Sequence record: OP172784
From: Escherichia phage ECO07P1
Reading direction: 5' to 3' (one strand)
DNA: 64,000 bases
Part shown: positions 23,014 to 33,009 of the stretch, piece by piece
How positions within the stretch are numbered: the stretch's first letter is position 1
How the letters are laid out: the number at the start of each line of letters is the position of its first letter
Made by a program: the position numbers and the translations under genes
Notes under the pieces: model-generated
Told to the model about the DNA's origin: nothing
Seen by the model: only the letters and a program-made list of their open reading frames with translations
The model's database searches: none

Positions 23014-23086
23014 TGGGAATTAGCCAAGTTGGTAAGGCACTGGATTTTGATTCCAGGATGCAAAGGTTCGAGTCCTTTATTCCCAG
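23014..23086 (+). tRNA. tRNA-Gln (anticodon UUG)
   Basis: Manual cloverleaf: acceptor tgggaat/attccca, anticodon loop ttTTGat, T-loop GTTCGAG. Confidence 0.85.
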
Positions 23087-23087
23087 C

Positions 23088-23174
23088 GCGAGAATGGTCA
23101 AATTGGTAAAGGCACAGCACTTAAAATGCTGCGGAATGATTTCCTTGTGGGTTCGAGTCCCACTTCTCGCACCA
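23088..23174 (+). tRNA. tRNA-Leu (anticodon UAA)
   Basis: Acceptor gcgagaa/ttctcgc, anticodon loop ctTAAaa, long variable arm, encoded CCA. Confidence 0.85.
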
Positions 23175-23179
23175 AATTT

Positions 23180-23253
<74 letters not shown>

Positions 23254-23263
23254 ATTTAATTTA

Positions 23264-23337
23264 CTCCGTGTAGCTCAGTTTGGTAGAGCGTCTGCTTTGG
23301 GAGCAGAATGTCGCAGGTTCAAATCCTGCCGCGGAGA
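23264..23337 (+). tRNA. tRNA-Pro (anticodon UGG)
   Basis: Anticodon stem tctgc/gcaga, loop ttTGGga; T-loop GTTCAAA. Confidence 0.8.
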
Positions 23338-23339
23338 CT

Positions 23340-23429
23340 GGAGGCGTGGCAGAGTGGTTTAATGCACCGGTCTTGAAAACCGGCAGTCGCTCCGGCGACT
23401 CATAGGTTCAAATCCTATCGCCTCCGCCA
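23340..23429 (+). tRNA. tRNA-Ser (anticodon UGA)
   Basis: Acceptor ggaggcg/cgcctcc, loop ctTGAaa, long variable arm, CCA. Confidence 0.85.
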
Positions 23430-23434
23430 GTTTT

Positions 23435-23510
23435 GCTGATTTAGCTTAGTAGGTAGAGCAACTCACTTGTAATGAGAAGGTCGGCGGTTCGATTCCGTCA
23501 ATCAGCACCA
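23435..23510 (+). tRNA. tRNA-Thr (anticodon UGU)
   Basis: Acceptor gctgatt/aatcagc, loop ctTGTaa, T-loop GTTCGAT, CCA. Confidence 0.8.
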
Positions 23511-23511
23511 A

Positions 23512-23586
23512 GGCCCTGTAGCTGGAAGGTTCAAGCAAGCGACTCATAATCGCCAGATGGTGGTTCAATTCCACCCAGGGCCACCA
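23512..23586 (+). tRNA. tRNA with CAU anticodon (Ile2-type or Met; T4 tRNA-Ile has CAU)
   Basis: Acceptor ggccctg/cagggcc, loop ctCATaa, T-arm ggtgg-ttcaatt-ccacc, CCA. Confidence 0.75.
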
Positions 23587-23599
23587 AATTAAGAATTAA

Positions 23600-23686
23600 G
23601 GGGAGTTATCCCGTAGAGGTAGCGGTGTGGACTGTAAATCCATTGTCATTGCGACTCGGGTGGTTCGACTCCATCACTCCCCACCA
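23600..23686 (+). tRNA. tRNA-Tyr (anticodon GUA)
   Basis: Acceptor ggggagt/actcccc, anticodon stem gtgga/tccat, loop ctGTAaa, long variable arm, CCA. Confidence 0.8.
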
Positions 23687-23690
23687 ATTT

Positions 23691-23765
23691 GGATGTGTAG
23701 CTCAATGGCAGAGCGATCGCCTGTTAAGCGATTGGTTATAGGTTCGAATCCTATCACGTCCGCCA
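23691..23765 (+). tRNA. tRNA-Asn (anticodon GUU)
   Basis: Anticodon stem atcgc/gcgat, loop ctGTTaa, T-arm atagg-ttcgaat-cctat, CCA. Confidence 0.8.
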
Positions 23766-23769
23766 AATC

Positions 23770-23845
23770 CGAGGCATAGCTCAGAAGGAAGAGCAAGGAC
23801 CTTCTAAGTCCTAGGTCGTAGGTTCGATCCCTACTGCCTCGACCA
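23770..23845 (+). tRNA. tRNA-Arg (anticodon UCU)
   Basis: Acceptor cgaggca/tgcctcg, anticodon stem aggac/gtcct, loop ctTCTaa, CCA. Confidence 0.85.
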
Positions 23846-29716: not shown

Positions 29717-29742
29717 CATTCATCAACTACTTGGAGGAAATT

Positions 29743-30156
29743 ATGACTCGTATCAATTTAACACTTGTTTCTGAACTGACCGACCAACATCTTATGGCTG
29801 AGTATCGTGAATTACCACGCGTATTTGGTGCAGTCCGTAAACATGTTCAAAACGGTAAACGTGTAAAGGATTTTAAAATCTCTCCAACATTTATCTTAGG
29901 CACAGGTCACGTAACATTCTTTTACGACAAACTCGAATTTTTACGTTTACGTCAAATCGAGCTAATCGCTGAATGCTTGAAACGTGGTTTCAAAATCAAG
30001 GACACGACTGTCCAGGATATTTCCGACATCCCTGTCGAATTTCGTAATAATTATGTCCCGTCCGAAGCGTCCATTGCGATAAGTCAAGCTCGCTTAGATG
30101 AAAAAATTGCTCAACGCCCTACTTGGTACAAATACTATGGTAAATCAATTTACTAA
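29743..30156 (+). CDS. denV: endonuclease V (pyrimidine dimer DNA glycosylase)
   Basis: 137 aa; [31 protein letters not shown] matches remembered T4 endo V. Confidence 0.95.
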
Positions 30157-30162
30157 GGAAAA

Positions 30163-30421
30163 ATGAAAATGTATCAAGAATTTATCGCTGAAGCAGATGC
30201 CAAAGGCCCCAAATTTAAAGTTAAAGCTTTCGTTGGTGATGCGGAAGACTTTGGCTCATTAAAACGTAATGGGTATTTTTCCTAGGCGGCGATGGTAGAG
30301 AAATAAACACCTATGCAAAACGTAGTGAATTGCTTATGTTGCTGCAAGTCCTAAAGTAGATGTTGACGATATTGGATACGATTTTAACAACTTCGGAATT
30401 ATTTCTGGCGGTGAAGCTTAA
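30163..30421 (+). pseudogene. decayed CTS-type internal-protein gene (frame broken at least twice)
   Basis: ATG with SD aaggaaaa encodes MKMYQEFIAEADAKGPK..., stop after 40 codons; coding-like sequence continues in two other frames. Confidence 0.4.
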
Positions 30422-30424
30422 ACG

Positions 30425-30455
30425 GTTTACGCTTAAGTATTAATATGGTATAATT
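30425..30455 (+). promoter_or_regulatory. early promoter for ipIII
   Basis: GTTTAC, 18 bp, tGGTATAAT. Confidence 0.6.
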
Positions 30456-30484
30456 ACTCTATCAAAACAAACAAGGAAACAAAA

Positions 30485-31063
30485 ATGAAAACGTATAAAG
30501 AATTTATTGCTGAAGCTTCTGTGGAAAAGGCCAAAGGCATTAATAAGGACGAGTGGAACTATCGTGGTGGAAACGGCTTTGACCCTAAAACTGCTCCACT
30601 TGAACGATATCTAGCCACAAAAGCTTCTGACTTTAAAGCTTTCGCTTGGGAAGGACTTCGCTGGCGTACCGATCTAAATATTGAAGTTGATGGGCTTAAA
30701 TTTGGCCATATTCAAGATGTTGTTGCTAGTAACTTGGATGCAGCTTTTGTTAAAGCTGACGGTGACCTTCGTCGCTGGAATTTAAAACTATTCTCTAAAC
30801 AGAAAGGCCCGGTGTTTGTGCCTAAAGCTGGTAAATGGGTTATTGATAATAAATTAGCTAAGGCTGTCAACTACGCTGGTCTTGAATTCGCCAAGCACAA
30901 ATCATCATGGAAAGGTCTGGATGCAATGGCTTTCCGTAAAGAATTTGCTGATGTTATGGCTAAAGGCGGCTTTAAGGCAGAAATAGATACCTCTAAAGGT
31001 ACGTTTAAGGACGCTAATGTTCAGTACGCTTATGCCGTTGCTAACGCAGCCCGTGGTAATTAA
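30485..31063 (+). CDS. ipIII: internal protein III
   Basis: 192 aa; CTS MKTYKEFIAEA; size as T4 IPIII. Confidence 0.8.
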   Translation: MKTYKEFIAEASVEKAKGINKDEWNYRGGNGFDPKTAPLERYLATKASDFKAFAWEGLRWRTDLNIEVDGLKFGHIQDVVASNLDAAFVKADGDLRRWNLKLFSKQKGPVFVPKAGKWVIDNKLAKAVNYAGLEFAKHKSSWKGLDAMAFRKEFADVMAKGGFKAEIDTSKGTFKDANVQYAYAVANAARGN

Positions 31064-31104
31064 TAAGGCCGATACTTAGGCTTATTTACATTTAAAGGAA
31101 ACAT

Positions 31105-31407
31105 ATGAAAACATATCAAGAATTTATTACTGAAGCTCGAGTGAGTGCAGGTAAATTAGAATCCGCTATAAATAAAAAGGCCCATTCATTTCATGATTTG
31201 TCCGATAAAGACCGTAAGAAACTTATAAGCCTTTATATTGACAAAGAGCGTATTCTCGCTCTTCCTGGCGCTAATGAAGGTAAACAGGCCAAGCCTTTGA
31301 ATGCTGTCGAAAAGAAAATTGATAACTTTGCTTCTAAATTCGGTATGTCTATGGATGACCTTCAGCAAGCGGCTATCGAAGCAGCTAAAGTAATTAAAGG
31401 TAAATAA
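31105..31407 (+). CDS. ipII: internal protein II
   Basis: 100 aa; CTS MKTYQEFITEA; size as T4 IPII. Confidence 0.8.
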   Translation: MKTYQEFITEARVSAGKLESAINKKAHSFHDLSDKDRKKLISLYIDKERILALPGANEGKQAKPLNAVEKKIDNFASKFGMSMDDLQQAAIEAAKVIKGK

Positions 31408-31550
31408 CATGGGAACAACCTGGACCTCATGATTCTATGAGGGATTCCCGCCAACCTGTAATAAGGGTCGAGCCCAAGTGCGGTAATGGGTAAACACAGA
31501 AATGGACAATTCATGCGCCACGGAATGGCCCAACCTAAAAGAGAAACTAA

Positions 31551-32090
31551 ATGAGAACATTTTTAACTGGTCCTTATCTATCCCTGATGAATGCTTTTAC
31601 ACACCATTCTGATGCTAGAGTAGAAGAAATTTGTAAGAATGATTATGTCCCACCATTTGAAGACTTACTCAAACAGTATTGCACACTTCGACTAGATGGT
31701 GGACGTCAATCCGGTAAATCAACTGCAGTAACTAATTTTGCCGCTAATTGGTTGTATGATGGCGGAACAGTTATTGTTCTTTCTAATACTTCAGCTTACG
31801 CTAAAATTTCTGCAAATAACATTAAAAAGGAATTTTCGCGTTATTCTAATGATGATATACGTTTTCGTTTATTTACTGATTCTGTCCGTAGTTTTATCGG
31901 TAATAAAGGAAGCAAGTTCAGAGGTTTATCGCTTTCGCGGATTTTGTATATAATCGATGAGCCTGTTAAATCTCCTGATATGGATAAAATTTACGATATT
32001 CATATTGAAACTGTGCACCACTGTTGCAATAGTAAATGCTGCATTGGTGGTATTATTCGTCCACAGTTTTTCATAATCGGAATGCAATGA
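31551..32090 (+). CDS. P-loop NTPase-like protein
   Basis: 179 aa; Walker A-like GGRQSGKST and Walker B-like ILYIIDEP. Confidence 0.6.
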   Translation: MRTFLTGPYLSLMNAFTHHSDARVEEICKNDYVPPFEDLLKQYCTLRLDGGRQSGKSTAVTNFAANWLYDGGTVIVLSNTSAYAKISANNIKKEFSRYSNDDIRFRLFTDSVRSFIGNKGSKFRGLSLSRILYIIDEPVKSPDMDKIYDIHIETVHHCCNSKCCIGGIIRPQFFIIGMQ

Positions 32091-32269
32091 TGACAGACAC
32101 GCAACTTTTCGAATATCTTTATTTTTCGCCAAAAACTGTTAAAAATAAATTGGTGAATCATTTTGAAATTTTGGCAAATAACAACGTCTTGAGCGAATTT
32201 TATCCTAAGCAATACAAATTACAAAAAAGGCGTATTCAAAGGATGCAGAGTTTTGTGCACTGCTCCTAA
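32087..32269 (+). CDS. hypothetical small protein
   Basis: 60 aa from ATG overlapping upstream stop (ATGATGA); weak SD. Confidence 0.4.
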   Translation: MMTDTQLFEYLYFSPKTVKNKLVNHFEILANNNVLSEFYPKQYKLQKRRIQRMQSFVHCS

Positions 32270-32425
32270 TGCAAGATTAATGAATAAAATTCCATATTTT
32301 ACCATGGAATTTATTGATGGGCCTTTTAAAGGACTAATCACGCAGAGTTTAATGGCATATGATTCTGAGCCATTTTTAATTAAAGAACAATCTTGGATAA
32401 ATTTATTTTCTAATTGAGAGGTTAT

Positions 32426-32788
32426 ATGAAAGCATATCAAATTCTTGAAGGCACGCATAAAGGTACTATTTATTTTGAAGATGGTATTCAAGCACGAATT
32501 ATTGTCTCTAAAACTTTTAAAGAGGACTCTTTTGTAGACCCAGAAATTTTCTATGGTTTGCATGCCCGTGAAATTGAAATTGAAACACAACCTACAGTTA
32601 AAATTGAAGGTGGTCAACACCTGAACGTTAACGTTCTGCGTCGCGAAACTCTGGAAGATGCAGTTAAGCATCCGGAAAAATATCCGCAGCTAACCATCCG
32701 TGTATCCGGTTATGCAGTTCGCTTTAACTCTCTGACTCCGGAACAGCAGCGCGACGTTATCGCTCGTACCTTTACTGAGAGTCTGTAA
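32426..32788 (+). CDS. autonomous glycyl-radical cofactor (GrcA/YfiD-like; T4 Y06I-type)
   Basis: 120 aa; C-terminal about 59 aa ([60 protein letters not shown]) match remembered E. coli GrcA including the RVSGY glycyl-radical motif. Confidence 0.85.
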
Positions 32789-33009
32789 TGGCAAAGATAA
32801 TTATTGAAGGTTCTAAAGATGTGCTAAATGCTTTCGCCGAATGGTTTAGTAATTCAGGCGAACAGCAATTTAATGAAGCGTGGAATATGGGTGATATTGA
32901 TGGAATTTATCCTACGACAGAAATTTCTGTTCAAGGATATGGAATTCATGAGCCTATTCGTTTAGTTGAATATGATTTAGGTACTGGTGAGGAAGTAAAA
33001 TATGATTGA
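32788..33009 (+). CDS. hypothetical protein
   Basis: 73 aa; overlapping start/stop with neighbours. Confidence 0.55.
   Translation: MAKIIIEGSKDVLNAFAEWFSNSGEQQFNEAWNMGDIDGIYPTTEISVQGYGIHEPIRLVEYDLGTGEEVKYD

What the first reader, a model, noticed from the sequence alone, without database searches (positions are those of the whole stretch)
31408..31550. GC-rich noncoding island between ipII and the P-loop gene
About 143 bp with no ORF and clearly higher GC than the flanks, containing a hairpin cctcat-gattct-atgagg (31425-31442). It could be a small RNA, a regulatory element or the remnant of an excised element.
Basis: seen in the sequence. Interest (0 to 1): 0.4.

Follow-up and report, generated by a model that had tools for sequence, protein, structure and literature searches.

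The report
Conserved pseudoknotted phage RNA, uncatalogued family
The GC-rich gap between ipII and the P-loop gene (T4 vs.8) is not junk or a remnant: it is one copy of a strongly conserved, pseudoknotted RNA fold shared by unrelated phage families, absent from Rfam, and of unknown function.

Summary
Window 31408-31550 has 48% GC against 35% for the window, carries no conserved ORF, and contains the hairpin at the stated coordinates.

The hairpin is only the tip of a larger RNA, about 31409-31499, on the gene strand. The fold has five helices:
- a pseudoknot between the P1 internal loop and the 3' tail;
- stem P2, which closes a three-way junction;
- two small hairpins, H1 and H2, flanked by near-invariant junction nucleotides.

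Every helix covaries across about 85 distinct copies. A covariance model scores the window copy at 93 bits (E about 1e-24), finds one copy per genome, and separates real copies from chance pattern matches.

Copies occur in T4-like, rV5-like, N4-like and Kagunavirus-like phages and in metagenomic contigs. They often lie inside tRNA gene arrays, and some have their own promoter and terminator with no ORF. No copy turned up in bacterial genomes.

Rfam 15 and the literature searches gave nothing. In T4 the element is hidden under an over-extended vs.8 start.

Function is unknown. I read it as an autonomous RNA module, either a stable ncRNA that binds a conserved partner or an RNA-processing element, rather than a regulator specific to vs.8.

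The parts
31409..31499 (+). Core structured-RNA motif: P1, pseudoknot, P2, H1, H2. The covariance-model match extends to 31514.
   Evidence: cmsearch with R1: window 31409-31514, 93.3 bits, E 3.8e-24, the only significant hit in 64 kb. Homologous copies score 28-122 bits in 83 other loci.
31411..31415 (+). P1 5' strand GGGAA; pairs with 31445-31449.
   Evidence: All five P1 pairs covary across classes. For example, columns 4-98 show AU 35, GC 32, CG 3, UA 3, GU 1 and 0 unpaired. Within class B, columns 7-54 show GC 17, CG 8, AU 1.
31445..31449 (+). P1 3' strand UUCCC.
   Evidence: Same evidence as the P1 5' strand.
31420..31422 (+). Pseudoknot 5' strand CUG, in the 5' internal loop of P1; pairs with 31497-31499.
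   Evidence: The equivalent pairs covary in a plain MAFFT alignment of 26 class-B copies. Columns 13-110 show CG 14, AU 7, GC 3, UA 2; columns 14-109 show GC 16, CG 10; none is unpaired. Other classes show CCAGC/GCUGG, UGAGG/CCUCA, CGGAA/UUCCG, GGGUA/UACCC versus GGGAG/CUCCC, and CUCCGG/CCGGAG (sequences, read by eye). In Tequatrovirus itself the 3 bp are invariant, so the window's pairing is inferred by homology.
31497..31499 (+). Pseudoknot 3' strand CAG.
   Evidence: Same evidence as the pseudoknot 5' strand.
31425..31442 (+). This part varies in length and sequence between classes.
   Evidence: Compensatory changes in L109, L108 and L040. Replaced by other hairpins, often with GNRA loops, in other classes.
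31450..31453 (+). P2 5' strand GCCA; pairs with 31487-31491 UG[G]GU, with G31489 bulged.
   Evidence: P2 covaries: in class B, columns 63-96 show UG 10, UA 8, CG 5, AU 3. Across all classes, columns 104-149 show AU 40, UA 16, CG 8, UG 7, GC 2. The register with a bulged purine was fitted by eye (ACUA/UG[A]GU versus ACCA/UG[G]GU).
31487..31491 (+). P2 3' strand.
31454..31468 (+). H1 hairpin: ACCU, loop GUAAUA, AGG(G)U. It contains an extra G (one of 31465-31467) found in no other copy.
   Evidence: The outer pair is A-U in 73 copies and G-C in 3. The loop varies as G-Y-R-R-N-A in 10 further members. The extra G is absent from all 922 matching phage records.
31469..31486 (+). Junction nucleotides C-G-A, H2 hairpin (G31472-C31481, C31473-G31480), then junction GGUAA 31482-31486.
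   Evidence: The second pair of H2 is C-G in 61 copies, U-A in 11 and G-C in 2. The H2 loop is variable. GGUAA is invariant, but the search patterns partly fixed it. Copies found by BLAST alone support it independently.
31503..31531 (+). 3' block specific to Tevenvirinae: AUGGACnnnnnCAUGYGCCAnGGAAYGGCCC, with a 3-bp hairpin 31517-31519/31527-31529 whose loop is ACGGAAU.
   Evidence: Sequence-invariant in 21 diverse T4-like copies with no covariation. Absent from the other phage classes. Its role is unknown.
31538..31553 (+). Purine-rich Shine-Dalgarno-like AAAGAG and the ATG of the vs.8 homologue.
   Evidence: PHROG 1488 (177 positions) aligns to residues 3-179 of the 179-aa ORF. The distance from the core to the ATG is 61-71 nt in most T4-like copies.
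31551..32090 (+). Downstream gene: vs.8 homologue, a P-loop protein of unknown function. It is a neighbour, not part of the RNA.
31105..31407 (+). Upstream gene ipII (internal virion protein). Its stop codon lies 3 nt before P1.

Best explanation
The island is a single copy of a previously uncatalogued family of structured RNAs, encoded on the gene strand.

The fold, about 90 nt at window 31409-31499:
- Stem P1 has an internal loop that forms a pseudoknot with the 3' tail.
- Stem P2 follows P1 and closes a three-way junction.
- The junction holds two short hairpins, H1 and H2.
- The junction nucleotides C-R-A and GGUAA, and the H1 stem CCU/AGG, are almost invariant.

How it most likely works. 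In this phage it is transcribed as part of the early ipIII-ipII-vs.8 message. I think it acts as an autonomous RNA module whose function does not depend on its neighbours. The compact pseudoknotted core would present the invariant junction to a conserved partner, either a host or phage macromolecule or possibly a small ligand. The RNA is probably released or stabilised as a small RNA, as tRNAs and T4's other stable RNAs are.

Shown:
- it is noncoding;
- the functional strand is the gene strand;
- the fold, with covariation in every helix;
- one copy per genome;
- presence in unrelated phage families, in contexts with no shared neighbouring gene.

Inferred:
- that it is transcribed and accumulates;
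- that it acts in trans or on its own;
- the nature of the partner.

My split: about 0.85 that it is a functional structured RNA of a new family. Given that, about 0.5 for a stand-alone ncRNA that binds a partner, 0.2 for a self-cleaving or RNA-processing module, 0.15 for a cis-regulator of the downstream gene in T4-like phages, and the rest other.
For: Conservation:
- 999 phage records match the island, and 549 of them match over at least 80% of its length.
- The core is about 90% identical over 43 nt in Vequintavirus (rV5-like) phages and 75-80% identical in other Tevenvirinae genera, in unannotated gaps.

Structure:
- A plain MAFFT alignment of 26 class-B copies has 92.8% of cells paired, against 18-45% when the 3' partners are slid by 1-3 columns.
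- Its covariation score is 0.228 against 0.083 for shuffles (0 of 500 shuffles reach it). The pseudoknot pairs covary with no exceptions.
- The model-fitted alignment of 78 matches has 94.4% paired against 27-54% slid. All five P1 pairs, all three P2 pairs, one H1 pair and one H2 pair change on both sides.
- G.U pairs occur only on the + strand reading.

Specificity:
- Model R1 gives 28-122 bits for real copies and at most 20.6 bits for chance pattern matches.
- It finds one copy in the 64-kb window and none in T4's tRNA/rnaC/rnaD region.

Noncoding:
- Of 37 distinct vs.8-upstream configurations, only T4 has an in-frame 40-codon extension.
- Twenty have a stop 0-12 nt before the ATG. The others have 11-17 codons in three different frames.
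- The window has +1 and -7 indels relative to T4.
- The PHROG profile starts at the 179-aa start.

Autonomy:
- No flanking protein family is shared between the T4-like and the other classes.
- tRNA genes lie on the same strand within about 0-600 nt in roughly 25 of 40 loci. In L178, L129, L127, L167 and L104 they are directly adjacent or on both sides.
- L163 has its own sigma70-type promoter about 12 nt upstream, in a 451-nt unit with no ORF of 20 aa or more that ends in terminators. Class D has its own promoter.
- In Kagunavirus-like phages the element sits between the endolysin stop codon and the terminator.

Taxa: Straboviridae, Vequintavirinae, Schitoviridae, Kagunavirus-like, and a 360-kb contig.

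Not found in 185,579 bacterial and archaeal genomes by exact core pattern: all 33 hits lack the downstream half. Not found in 5,426 E. coli genomes.
Against: There is no expression data, so transcription, processing and stability are inferred.

Single-sequence folding energy is ordinary.

In Tequatrovirus the pseudoknot is only 3 bp and invariant. It rests on homology with other classes.

Members outside the T4-like and rV5-like groups were found with patterns that fix part of the core. The apparent invariance of CCUG..AAGG and CGGUAA is therefore partly ascertainment. When the H1 loop was freed it proved variable.

Alignment A6 is fitted to the model and leans towards the structure.

In Tevenvirinae the element keeps a nearly constant distance (61-71 nt) to the next start codon. 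It is also followed by an invariant T4-like-specific block. Both fit a cis role there.

The window's own copy carries a private extra G inside the otherwise invariant core. This could be a sequencing error or could impair this copy.

No partner or activity is identified.
Confidence: 0.75

Rival explanations
1. Self-cleaving ribozyme or other RNA-processing module. The compact double-helix-plus-pseudoknot fold would catalyse or direct cleavage. It would define transcript ends in polycistronic or tRNA-array transcripts, much as HDV-like theta ribozymes do next to phage tRNAs.
For: The order of strands is the nested topology of HDV-like ribozymes: P1 5', pseudoknot 5', hairpin, P1 3', domain, pseudoknot 3' (my reading). 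The placement does not depend on neighbouring genes, lies next to tRNAs and occurs at operon ends. Tandem copies occur in L031, L160 and L157. About 20 near-invariant nucleotides are concentrated in junctions. Theta ribozymes set a precedent for ribozymes beside phage tRNAs (PMC10879173, title and abstract).
Against: No Rfam ribozyme family matches even at E up to 10. The segment equivalent to J4/2 is 1-8 nt long with no conserved C. P1 does not begin with a G.U pair. The conserved nucleotides lie where HDV-like ribozymes have the dispensable P4. No cleavage data exist.
Confidence: 0.15
2. Cis-acting leader of the downstream gene (vs.8, or an ip gene in Jiaodavirus). This would be a riboswitch-like aptamer or translational operator that controls ribosome access to the start at 31551.
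For: In Tevenvirinae the element always lies upstream of a gene start at a nearly fixed distance, 61-71 nt from the core end to the ATG in most copies. An invariant block with a small hairpin precedes the Shine-Dalgarno region. The upstream gene's stop codon abuts or overlaps P1, so translation could remodel the fold.
Against: Outside Tevenvirinae there is no consistent downstream gene. The element is followed by a promoter in rV5-like phages and class D, or by a terminator in L178, L182 and L183. It can also lie between tRNAs, or in an ORF-free unit as in L163. In Jiaodavirus the next gene is an internal protein, not vs.8. Alternative pairing between P2 and the 3' block does not covary: L139 and L052 change P2 while GGCCC stays invariant (my reading).
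Confidence: 0.12
3. It is protein-coding: the N-terminal 40 codons of Vs.8 as annotated in T4. On this view the window copy is broken by a frameshift, either as a pseudogene-like N-terminus or through sequencing error.
For: The window differs from T4 by +1 and -7 nt, a net change of -6. The extra G is private to this genome.
Against: Only 1 of 37 configurations keeps that frame. Three different frames are open in different relatives, and 20 have a stop 0-12 nt upstream of the ATG. Without the extra G the window would still be out of frame, because of the 7-nt deletion. Nucleotide conservation is frame-independent and includes phages with no vs.8 next to the element. The PHROG family profile begins at the short start. 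RNA covariation explains the conservation.
Confidence: 0.03
4. A DNA-level element: a recombination or shuffling cassette (PeSL-like), a homing-endonuclease target or scar, or a remnant of an excised mobile element.
For: It lies in a plastic region where gene order differs between T4-like phages. It follows denV in T4, ipII here, and ipIII in others. Homing endonuclease genes and group I introns are common nearby in such phages.
Against: Strand-specific G.U pairing and a covarying pseudoknot are RNA signatures. The element is single-copy and has no early-promoter consensus within it. It is intact and under purifying selection in unrelated phage families. No terminal repeats or flanking endonuclease gene travel with it.
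Confidence: 0.03

Closest known systems
T4 stable RNAs rnaC and rnaD (species 1 and 2 RNAs)
   Same: They are small phage-encoded RNAs of unknown function, co-oriented with and adjacent to tRNA genes. This is the same genomic niche that this family occupies in many non-T4 phages.
   Different: There is no sequence or structure relationship: model R1 finds nothing in T4 68000-75500, which holds rnaC and rnaD. In T4-like phages this element sits 6-7.5 kb from the tRNA cluster.
HDV-like / theta ribozymes next to phage tRNAs (PMC10879173)
   Same: The nested pseudoknot strand order is the same, and both lie beside tRNA genes of phages.
   Different: The defining catalytic C in J4/2 and the G.U pair at the base of P1 are absent. 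Here the conserved nucleotides lie in the domain equivalent to the dispensable P4. No Rfam HDV-family hit was found.
GOLLD and ROOL large ornate RNAs
   Same: They are phage-associated structured RNAs of unknown function, often next to tRNA genes (from memory; PMC12286853 abstract for their structures).
   Different: They are 5-8 times larger and were not detected by their Rfam models in any locus scanned. This motif is about 90-120 nt. L153 and L167 do carry extra conserved blocks around the motif, so a larger RNA in some phages is not excluded.
Pseudoknotted riboswitch aptamers
   Same: A compact fold with an H-type pseudoknot and a highly conserved junction, located 5' of a gene in T4-like phages.
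   Different: There is no consistent downstream gene or expression platform across the family, and no Rfam riboswitch match.
PeSL (promoter-early stem-loop) cassettes of T4-type phages (from memory: Arbiol et al. 2010)
   Same: A short conserved noncoding segment with a stem-loop in a plastic region of T4-like genomes.
   Different: PeSLs carry an early promoter and occur many times per genome. This element has no promoter consensus, is single-copy and has a covarying multi-helix fold.
Unnamed candidates in the catalogue of 10,006 viral csRNAs (PMC10690425)
   Same: That catalogue draws on the same data source (IMG/VR) and the same kind of object (covarying intergenic RNA motifs). This motif may be among them.
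   Different: This could not be checked because the supplement is not held. The paper's text describes no motif with these features.

Membership tests
Any Rfam 15 family (4227 covariance models) | A match to a curated covariance model at or near its gathering score | tested here: not met
   The window scans of 30000-33000 and 31400-31560 at E up to 10 gave only a 13.9-bit chance hit. The L178 copy gave nothing but the adjacent tRNA. Gathering-threshold scans of 19 loci found only tRNAs, group I introns and one abiF motif elsewhere.
HDV-like (including theta) self-cleaving ribozymes | Nested double pseudoknot with strand order P1, P2, P3, P1', P4, P2' | tested here: met
   The strand order P1 5', pseudoknot 5', hairpin, P1 3', junction domain, pseudoknot 3' is seen in all classes. 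This is topology only.
HDV-like (including theta) self-cleaving ribozymes | A conserved catalytic cytosine in J4/2, and P1 starting at the cleavage site with a G.U pair | tested here: not met
   The segment between P2 3' and the pseudoknot 3' strand is 1-8 nt with no conserved C (UAAAUA, UUUACAUA, U, CCUACA and others). The first P1 pair is G-C, A-U or U-A.
HDV-like (including theta) self-cleaving ribozymes | Self-cleavage activity | not testable with these tools
   This needs in vitro transcription and a cleavage assay.
Riboswitch / cis-regulatory leader | Consistent position upstream of functionally related genes, with an expression platform | tested here: not met
   No neighbouring protein is shared across classes. 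The element is followed variously by a promoter, a terminator, tRNAs or nothing. The feature is met only within Tevenvirinae.
Riboswitch / cis-regulatory leader | Ligand-dependent structural change | not testable with these tools
   This needs in-line probing or ITC.
tRNA / tmRNA / tRNA-like gene | Cloverleaf detectable by ARAGORN or the Rfam tRNA model | tested here: not met
   ARAGORN finds 10 tRNAs at 23014-23845 and nothing at 31.4 kb. The Rfam tRNA model does not hit the motif in any locus.
Protein-coding 5' end of vs.8 (T4 annotation, 219 aa) | The reading frame is conserved among relatives | tested here: not met
   Only 1 of 37 configurations keeps the frame. Stops and three alternative frames occur elsewhere. 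Indels of +1, -7 and -8 are present. The PHROG 1488 profile starts at the short start.
T4 rnaC / rnaD stable RNAs | Sequence or structure homology | tested here: not met
   R1 finds no hit in L188, which contains both genes.
Double T-loop tRNA-elbow-binding module (T-box stem I, RNase P, L1 stalk) | Two interdigitated pentanucleotide T-loops | not tested
   This is only a recollection-based lead, prompted by the UAA-containing H1 loop and the GGUAA junction. The H1 loop varies as G-Y-R-R-N-A. No 3D tool was available.

The most novel reading that the evidence does not exclude
The motif is a new class of catalytic or tRNA-directed RNA carried by many virulent phages. It could be a new self-cleaving ribozyme that processes phage tRNA and mRNA transcripts. 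Alternatively it could be an RNA that binds tRNAs or a tRNA-handling host factor through its invariant three-way junction, and so manipulates host translation or evades a tRNA-targeting defence.
Probability: 0.2. Interest if true: 0.9.

Novelty: categorically new. Interest (0 to 1): 0.75.

Why it matters
T4 is among the most closely studied genomes. Here it carries an RNA more conserved than its neighbouring proteins, hidden under a mis-set start codon. The same fold occurs in myo-, podo- and siphoviruses that share no neighbouring genes. That points to a function important enough to be kept or exchanged across phage families.

Its frequent place inside tRNA arrays suggests a link to tRNA or translation biology, or to RNA processing. 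Both areas are central to current work on phage-host conflict.

The element is small, genetically accessible in T4 and comes with a ready set of natural compensatory variants, so its function is directly testable. It also corrects annotation in two places: the Vs.8 start in T4 and many relatives, and a spurious 31-aa CDS in EcoPhCCP1.

By 'new' I mean new at the level of RNA family, with no Rfam or literature match. The kind of function is not established. The motif may sit unnamed in large candidate catalogues that I could not inspect.

Tried and rejected
- Single-sequence folding of both strands was uninformative, with z about +0.4.
- Host mimicry: no similar sequence in 5,426 E. coli genomes.
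- Bacterial homes: the exact core pattern gave 33 hits in 185,579 genomes, all lacking the downstream half and about as many as chance predicts.
- Shared neighbouring gene: an all-against-all BLASTP of ORFs within 4 kb found none across classes.
- Generic 'best helix anywhere' swap test for the pseudoknot: not discriminating, with own mean 4.4 against swapped 4.1. Short helices arise easily, so I replaced it with a column-based count on an unbiased alignment.
- tRNA-Tyr anticodon-loop mimic (CUGUAA): weakened, because the loop varies (GUGAAA, GUAGAA, GCAAUA).
- Switch between P2 and the downstream GGCCC: rejected, because P2 changes without compensation in GGCCC.
- Structure in the 3' block specific to T4-like phages: only an invariant 3-bp hairpin.
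- Homology to T4 rnaC/rnaD, GOLLD, ROOL or RNase P RNA: none.
- Literature: the core sequence string, T4 small-RNA terms, phage structured-RNA catalogues and anti-defence RNA terms returned nothing on this element. The supplement of PMC10690425 is not held.
- Wasted calls: one search used wrong coordinates, and one search used a mistyped pattern with 5 N instead of 4. Its 16 hits were all model-negative.
- A MAFFT alignment of all classes misaligns the P1 5' strands. All-class counts therefore rest on the model-fitted alignment A6.

Full report
**1. Setting**

The window comes from a T4-like phage (Tequatrovirus). On the + strand the order is:
- denV, 29731-30156
- an ipIII-like gene, 30485-31063
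- ipII, 31105-31407
- the island
- a 179-aa P-loop ORF, 31551-32090, homologous to T4 vs.8

A sigma70-type promoter-like site lies at 30426-30454 and a terminator-like hairpin at 31066-31083. Nothing of either kind lies between ipII and vs.8. The island is therefore most simply part of the early polycistronic transcript.

**2. The observation**

The hairpin and the coordinates are exact.
- GC is 0.483 against 0.353 for the window. That puts the island in the top 1.2% of 143-nt windows, a set that also contains the tRNA cluster.
- Only unconserved mechanical ORFs overlap it.
- Folding energy alone is unremarkable.

The case for significance rests on comparison with other phages.

**3. It is not coding, although T4's annotation says so**

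T4 annotates vs.8 as 219 aa.
- The window differs from T4 by a +1 G and a 7-nt deletion. Phage SP1 differs by 8 nt.
- Among 37 distinct configurations upstream of vs.8 homologues, only T4 keeps that frame.
- Twenty have a stop 0-12 nt before the short start. The rest have 11-17 codons in three different frames.
- PHROG 1488, with 177 profile positions, aligns to residues 3-179 of the short ORF.

Yet the nucleotide sequence is 90-97% identical in several hundred records. Conservation that ignores the reading frame points to an RNA-level or DNA-level function.

**4. The same core in unrelated phages**

BLAST with the island alone found the central 40-45 nt in several groups:
- at 75-80% identity in other Tevenvirinae genera (Jiaodavirus KP17, Roskildevirus Cronus);
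- at about 90% identity in rV5-like Vequintavirus phages.

In each case it lies in unannotated gaps on the gene strand.

Exact-pattern scans then recovered copies from IMG/VR and metagenomes. The scan of 185,579 bacterial and archaeal genomes gave only chance matches that lack the downstream half. E. coli genomes hold nothing similar.

Isolates place further classes in Schitoviridae (Klebsiella phage KpCHEMY26) and in Kagunavirus-like siphoviruses (EcoPhCCP1). One copy lies on a 360-kb contig.

**5. The fold** (window coordinates)

- P1: 31411-15 / 31445-49.
- P1 internal loop: contains CUG 31420-22, which pairs with CAG 31497-99 to form the pseudoknot.
- Distal hairpin: 31425-42.
- P2: 31450-53 / 31487-91, with a bulged G.
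- H1: 31454-68.
- Junction C-G-A.
- H2: 31472-73 / 31480-81.
- Junction GGUAA: 31482-86.

Evidence from a plain MAFFT alignment of 26 class-B copies, which is independent of any structure:
- 92.8% of cells pair, against 18-45% when the 3' partners are slid.
- The covariation score is 0.228 against 0.083 for shuffles (0 of 500).
- Two pseudoknot pairs show four and two standard pair types respectively, with no unpaired cell.

Evidence from all classes:
- P1 appears as GGGAA/UUCCC, GGGAG/CUCCC, AAAGG/CCUUU, AAAGC/GCUUU, AAAGA/UCUUU, GGGG/CCCC, GGAAC/GUUCC, UGAAUG/CAUUCA, UGAGUG/CACUCA, GUGUAU/AUACAC, UGCGU/ACGCA, AGCGC/GCGCU and more.
- On the model-fitted alignment of 78 matches, 94.4% of cells pair against 27-54% slid. 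All five P1 pairs, all three P2 pairs, one H1 pair (A-U to G-C) and one H2 pair (C-G, U-A, G-C) change on both sides. This alignment leans towards the structure by construction.
- The pseudoknot strands differ by class yet remain complementary. Examples are CGCCGA/UCGGUG, AACCG/CGGUU, CACAC/GUGUG, CCUGG/UCAGG, CCAGC/GCUGG, UGAGG/CCUCA, CGGAA/UUCCG, GGGUA/UACCC versus GGGAG/CUCCC, CUCCGG/CCGGAG and UACCAA/UUGGUA (sequences, read by eye).
- G.U pairs fit only the + strand.

**6. Specificity**

Covariance model R1 (P1, P2, H1 and H2, without the pseudoknot) gave these results:
- the window copy scores 93.3 bits and T4's 97.4 bits;
- it finds no other copy in the window and none in T4's tRNA/rnaC/rnaD region;
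- real members score 28-122 bits, while chance pattern matches score at most 20.6 bits.

Tandem second copies exist in L031, L160 and L157.

One caveat applies. Members beyond the T4-like and rV5-like groups were retrieved with patterns that fix CCUG..AAGG and CGGUAA, so their invariance is partly forced. When I freed the H1 loop it turned out to vary as G-Y-R-R-N-A.

**7. Context**

No neighbouring protein family is shared between classes. tRNA genes lie on the same strand within a few to about 600 nt in roughly 25 of 40 loci:
- L178: 5 nt after tRNA-Ser, and followed by a terminator.
- L129 and L127: directly after a tRNA.
- L167 and L104: between tRNAs.

Elsewhere the element has its own promoter, or sits in a 3' UTR:
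- L163 has TTGCGG-17-TATAAT about 12 nt upstream of P1, in a 451-nt unit with no ORF of 20 aa or more that ends in two terminators.
- Class D also has its own promoter.
- In Kagunavirus-like phages the element lies between the endolysin stop codon and the operon terminator.

In Tevenvirinae it lies upstream of vs.8 (or of an ip gene), 61-71 nt from the start codon. There it is followed by an invariant T4-like-specific block whose only structure is a 3-bp hairpin with an AnGGAAY loop.

**8. What it most likely is**

It is an autonomous structured RNA. The variety of contexts argues against a gene-specific regulator, and the covarying pseudoknot and strand asymmetry argue against a DNA element.

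I commit to this reading: the RNA folds into a compact pseudoknotted body that presents the invariant junction to a conserved partner. It probably accumulates as a small RNA after processing, as its tRNA neighbours do.

A self-cleaving or processing module is the main rival. It shares the HDV-like strand topology and the association with tRNAs, but it lacks the defining catalytic C and the G.U pair at the P1 base. A cis role limited to T4-like phages remains possible alongside either reading.

**9. Known families**

Rfam 15 gives nothing. The literature searches, including the core sequence as a text string, gave nothing. A catalogue of about 10,000 viral candidate RNAs may include the motif unnamed, but that could not be checked.

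I therefore treat it as a new RNA family whose function remains to be found.

**10. This particular copy**

The extra G in H1 (AAGGG) occurs in none of 922 matching phage records. It costs only a few bits against the model. It may be a homopolymer sequencing error or a private mutation.

Noticed in passing
L001 3329-3448 (T4 NC_000866 64793-64912): T4's annotated Vs.8 (219 aa) appears over-extended by 40 codons. The family start is Met41 (MRTFLTG). Many relatives are annotated inconsistently, with products such as 'endoribonuclease', 'large terminase subunit' or 'TraG-like'.
   Followed up: yes
window 31465-31467: The run GGG is GG in every other copy, including 922 phage records. It is either a private insertion inside the otherwise invariant core or a homopolymer sequencing error.
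   Followed up: partly
window 31503-31531: A sequence-invariant block specific to Tevenvirinae, with a 3-bp GCC/GGC hairpin presenting an A-n-GGA-A-Y loop, just upstream of the vs.8 Shine-Dalgarno region. From memory it resembles a CsrA-type GGA hairpin site. This was not tested.
   Followed up: partly
L190 2319-2414 (Escherichia phage EcoPhCCP1, protein XHQ01469.1): An annotated 31-aa 'hypothetical protein' coincides exactly with the RNA motif (model hit 2319-2411, 52 bits). It is probably a spurious CDS.
   Followed up: partly
L153 about 1520-1860 and the corresponding region of L167: Two unrelated-looking contigs share further colinear conserved noncoding blocks, about 115-230 nt upstream and about 155 nt downstream of the motif. 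These may be other RNAs or a larger RNA that contains the motif as a domain.
   Followed up: no
L144 3624-3655 (- strand): An Rfam abiF RNA motif (45.4 bits, above its gathering score) lies next to a tRNA-Asn and about 470 nt upstream of the element. It may be a phage-borne antitoxin-like RNA.
   Followed up: no
L043 3115-3418; L167 4112-4333 (- strand): Group I introns were detected in two of the phage contigs that carry the motif.
   Followed up: no
L018, L024, L033, L161 (Schitoviridae-like), flanks of the element: A repeated sequence of about 20 nt (GUGCYMUUWYCGUUGUGR) and an outer 8-bp stem (GUUGUGAC...GUCACAAC) bracket the element and neighbouring noncoding units. These may be promoters or processing signals of an array of small RNAs.
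   Followed up: no
window 30163-30285: A 40-aa ORF begins MKMYQEFIAEA, the same N-terminal motif as ipII and ipIII (MKTYQEFI..). It may be a truncated internal-protein gene. SP1 has an 84-aa gene at the equivalent place.
   Followed up: no
L011/L012 about 1430-1470 and L043 about 60-100 and 215-245: In rV5-like and related phages the motif is flanked by copies of CCCnUAGAGGGCUUGAnAGUGC. A similar CCCUUAG-initiated hairpin precedes the motif in L153 and L167. Its meaning is unknown.
   Followed up: no
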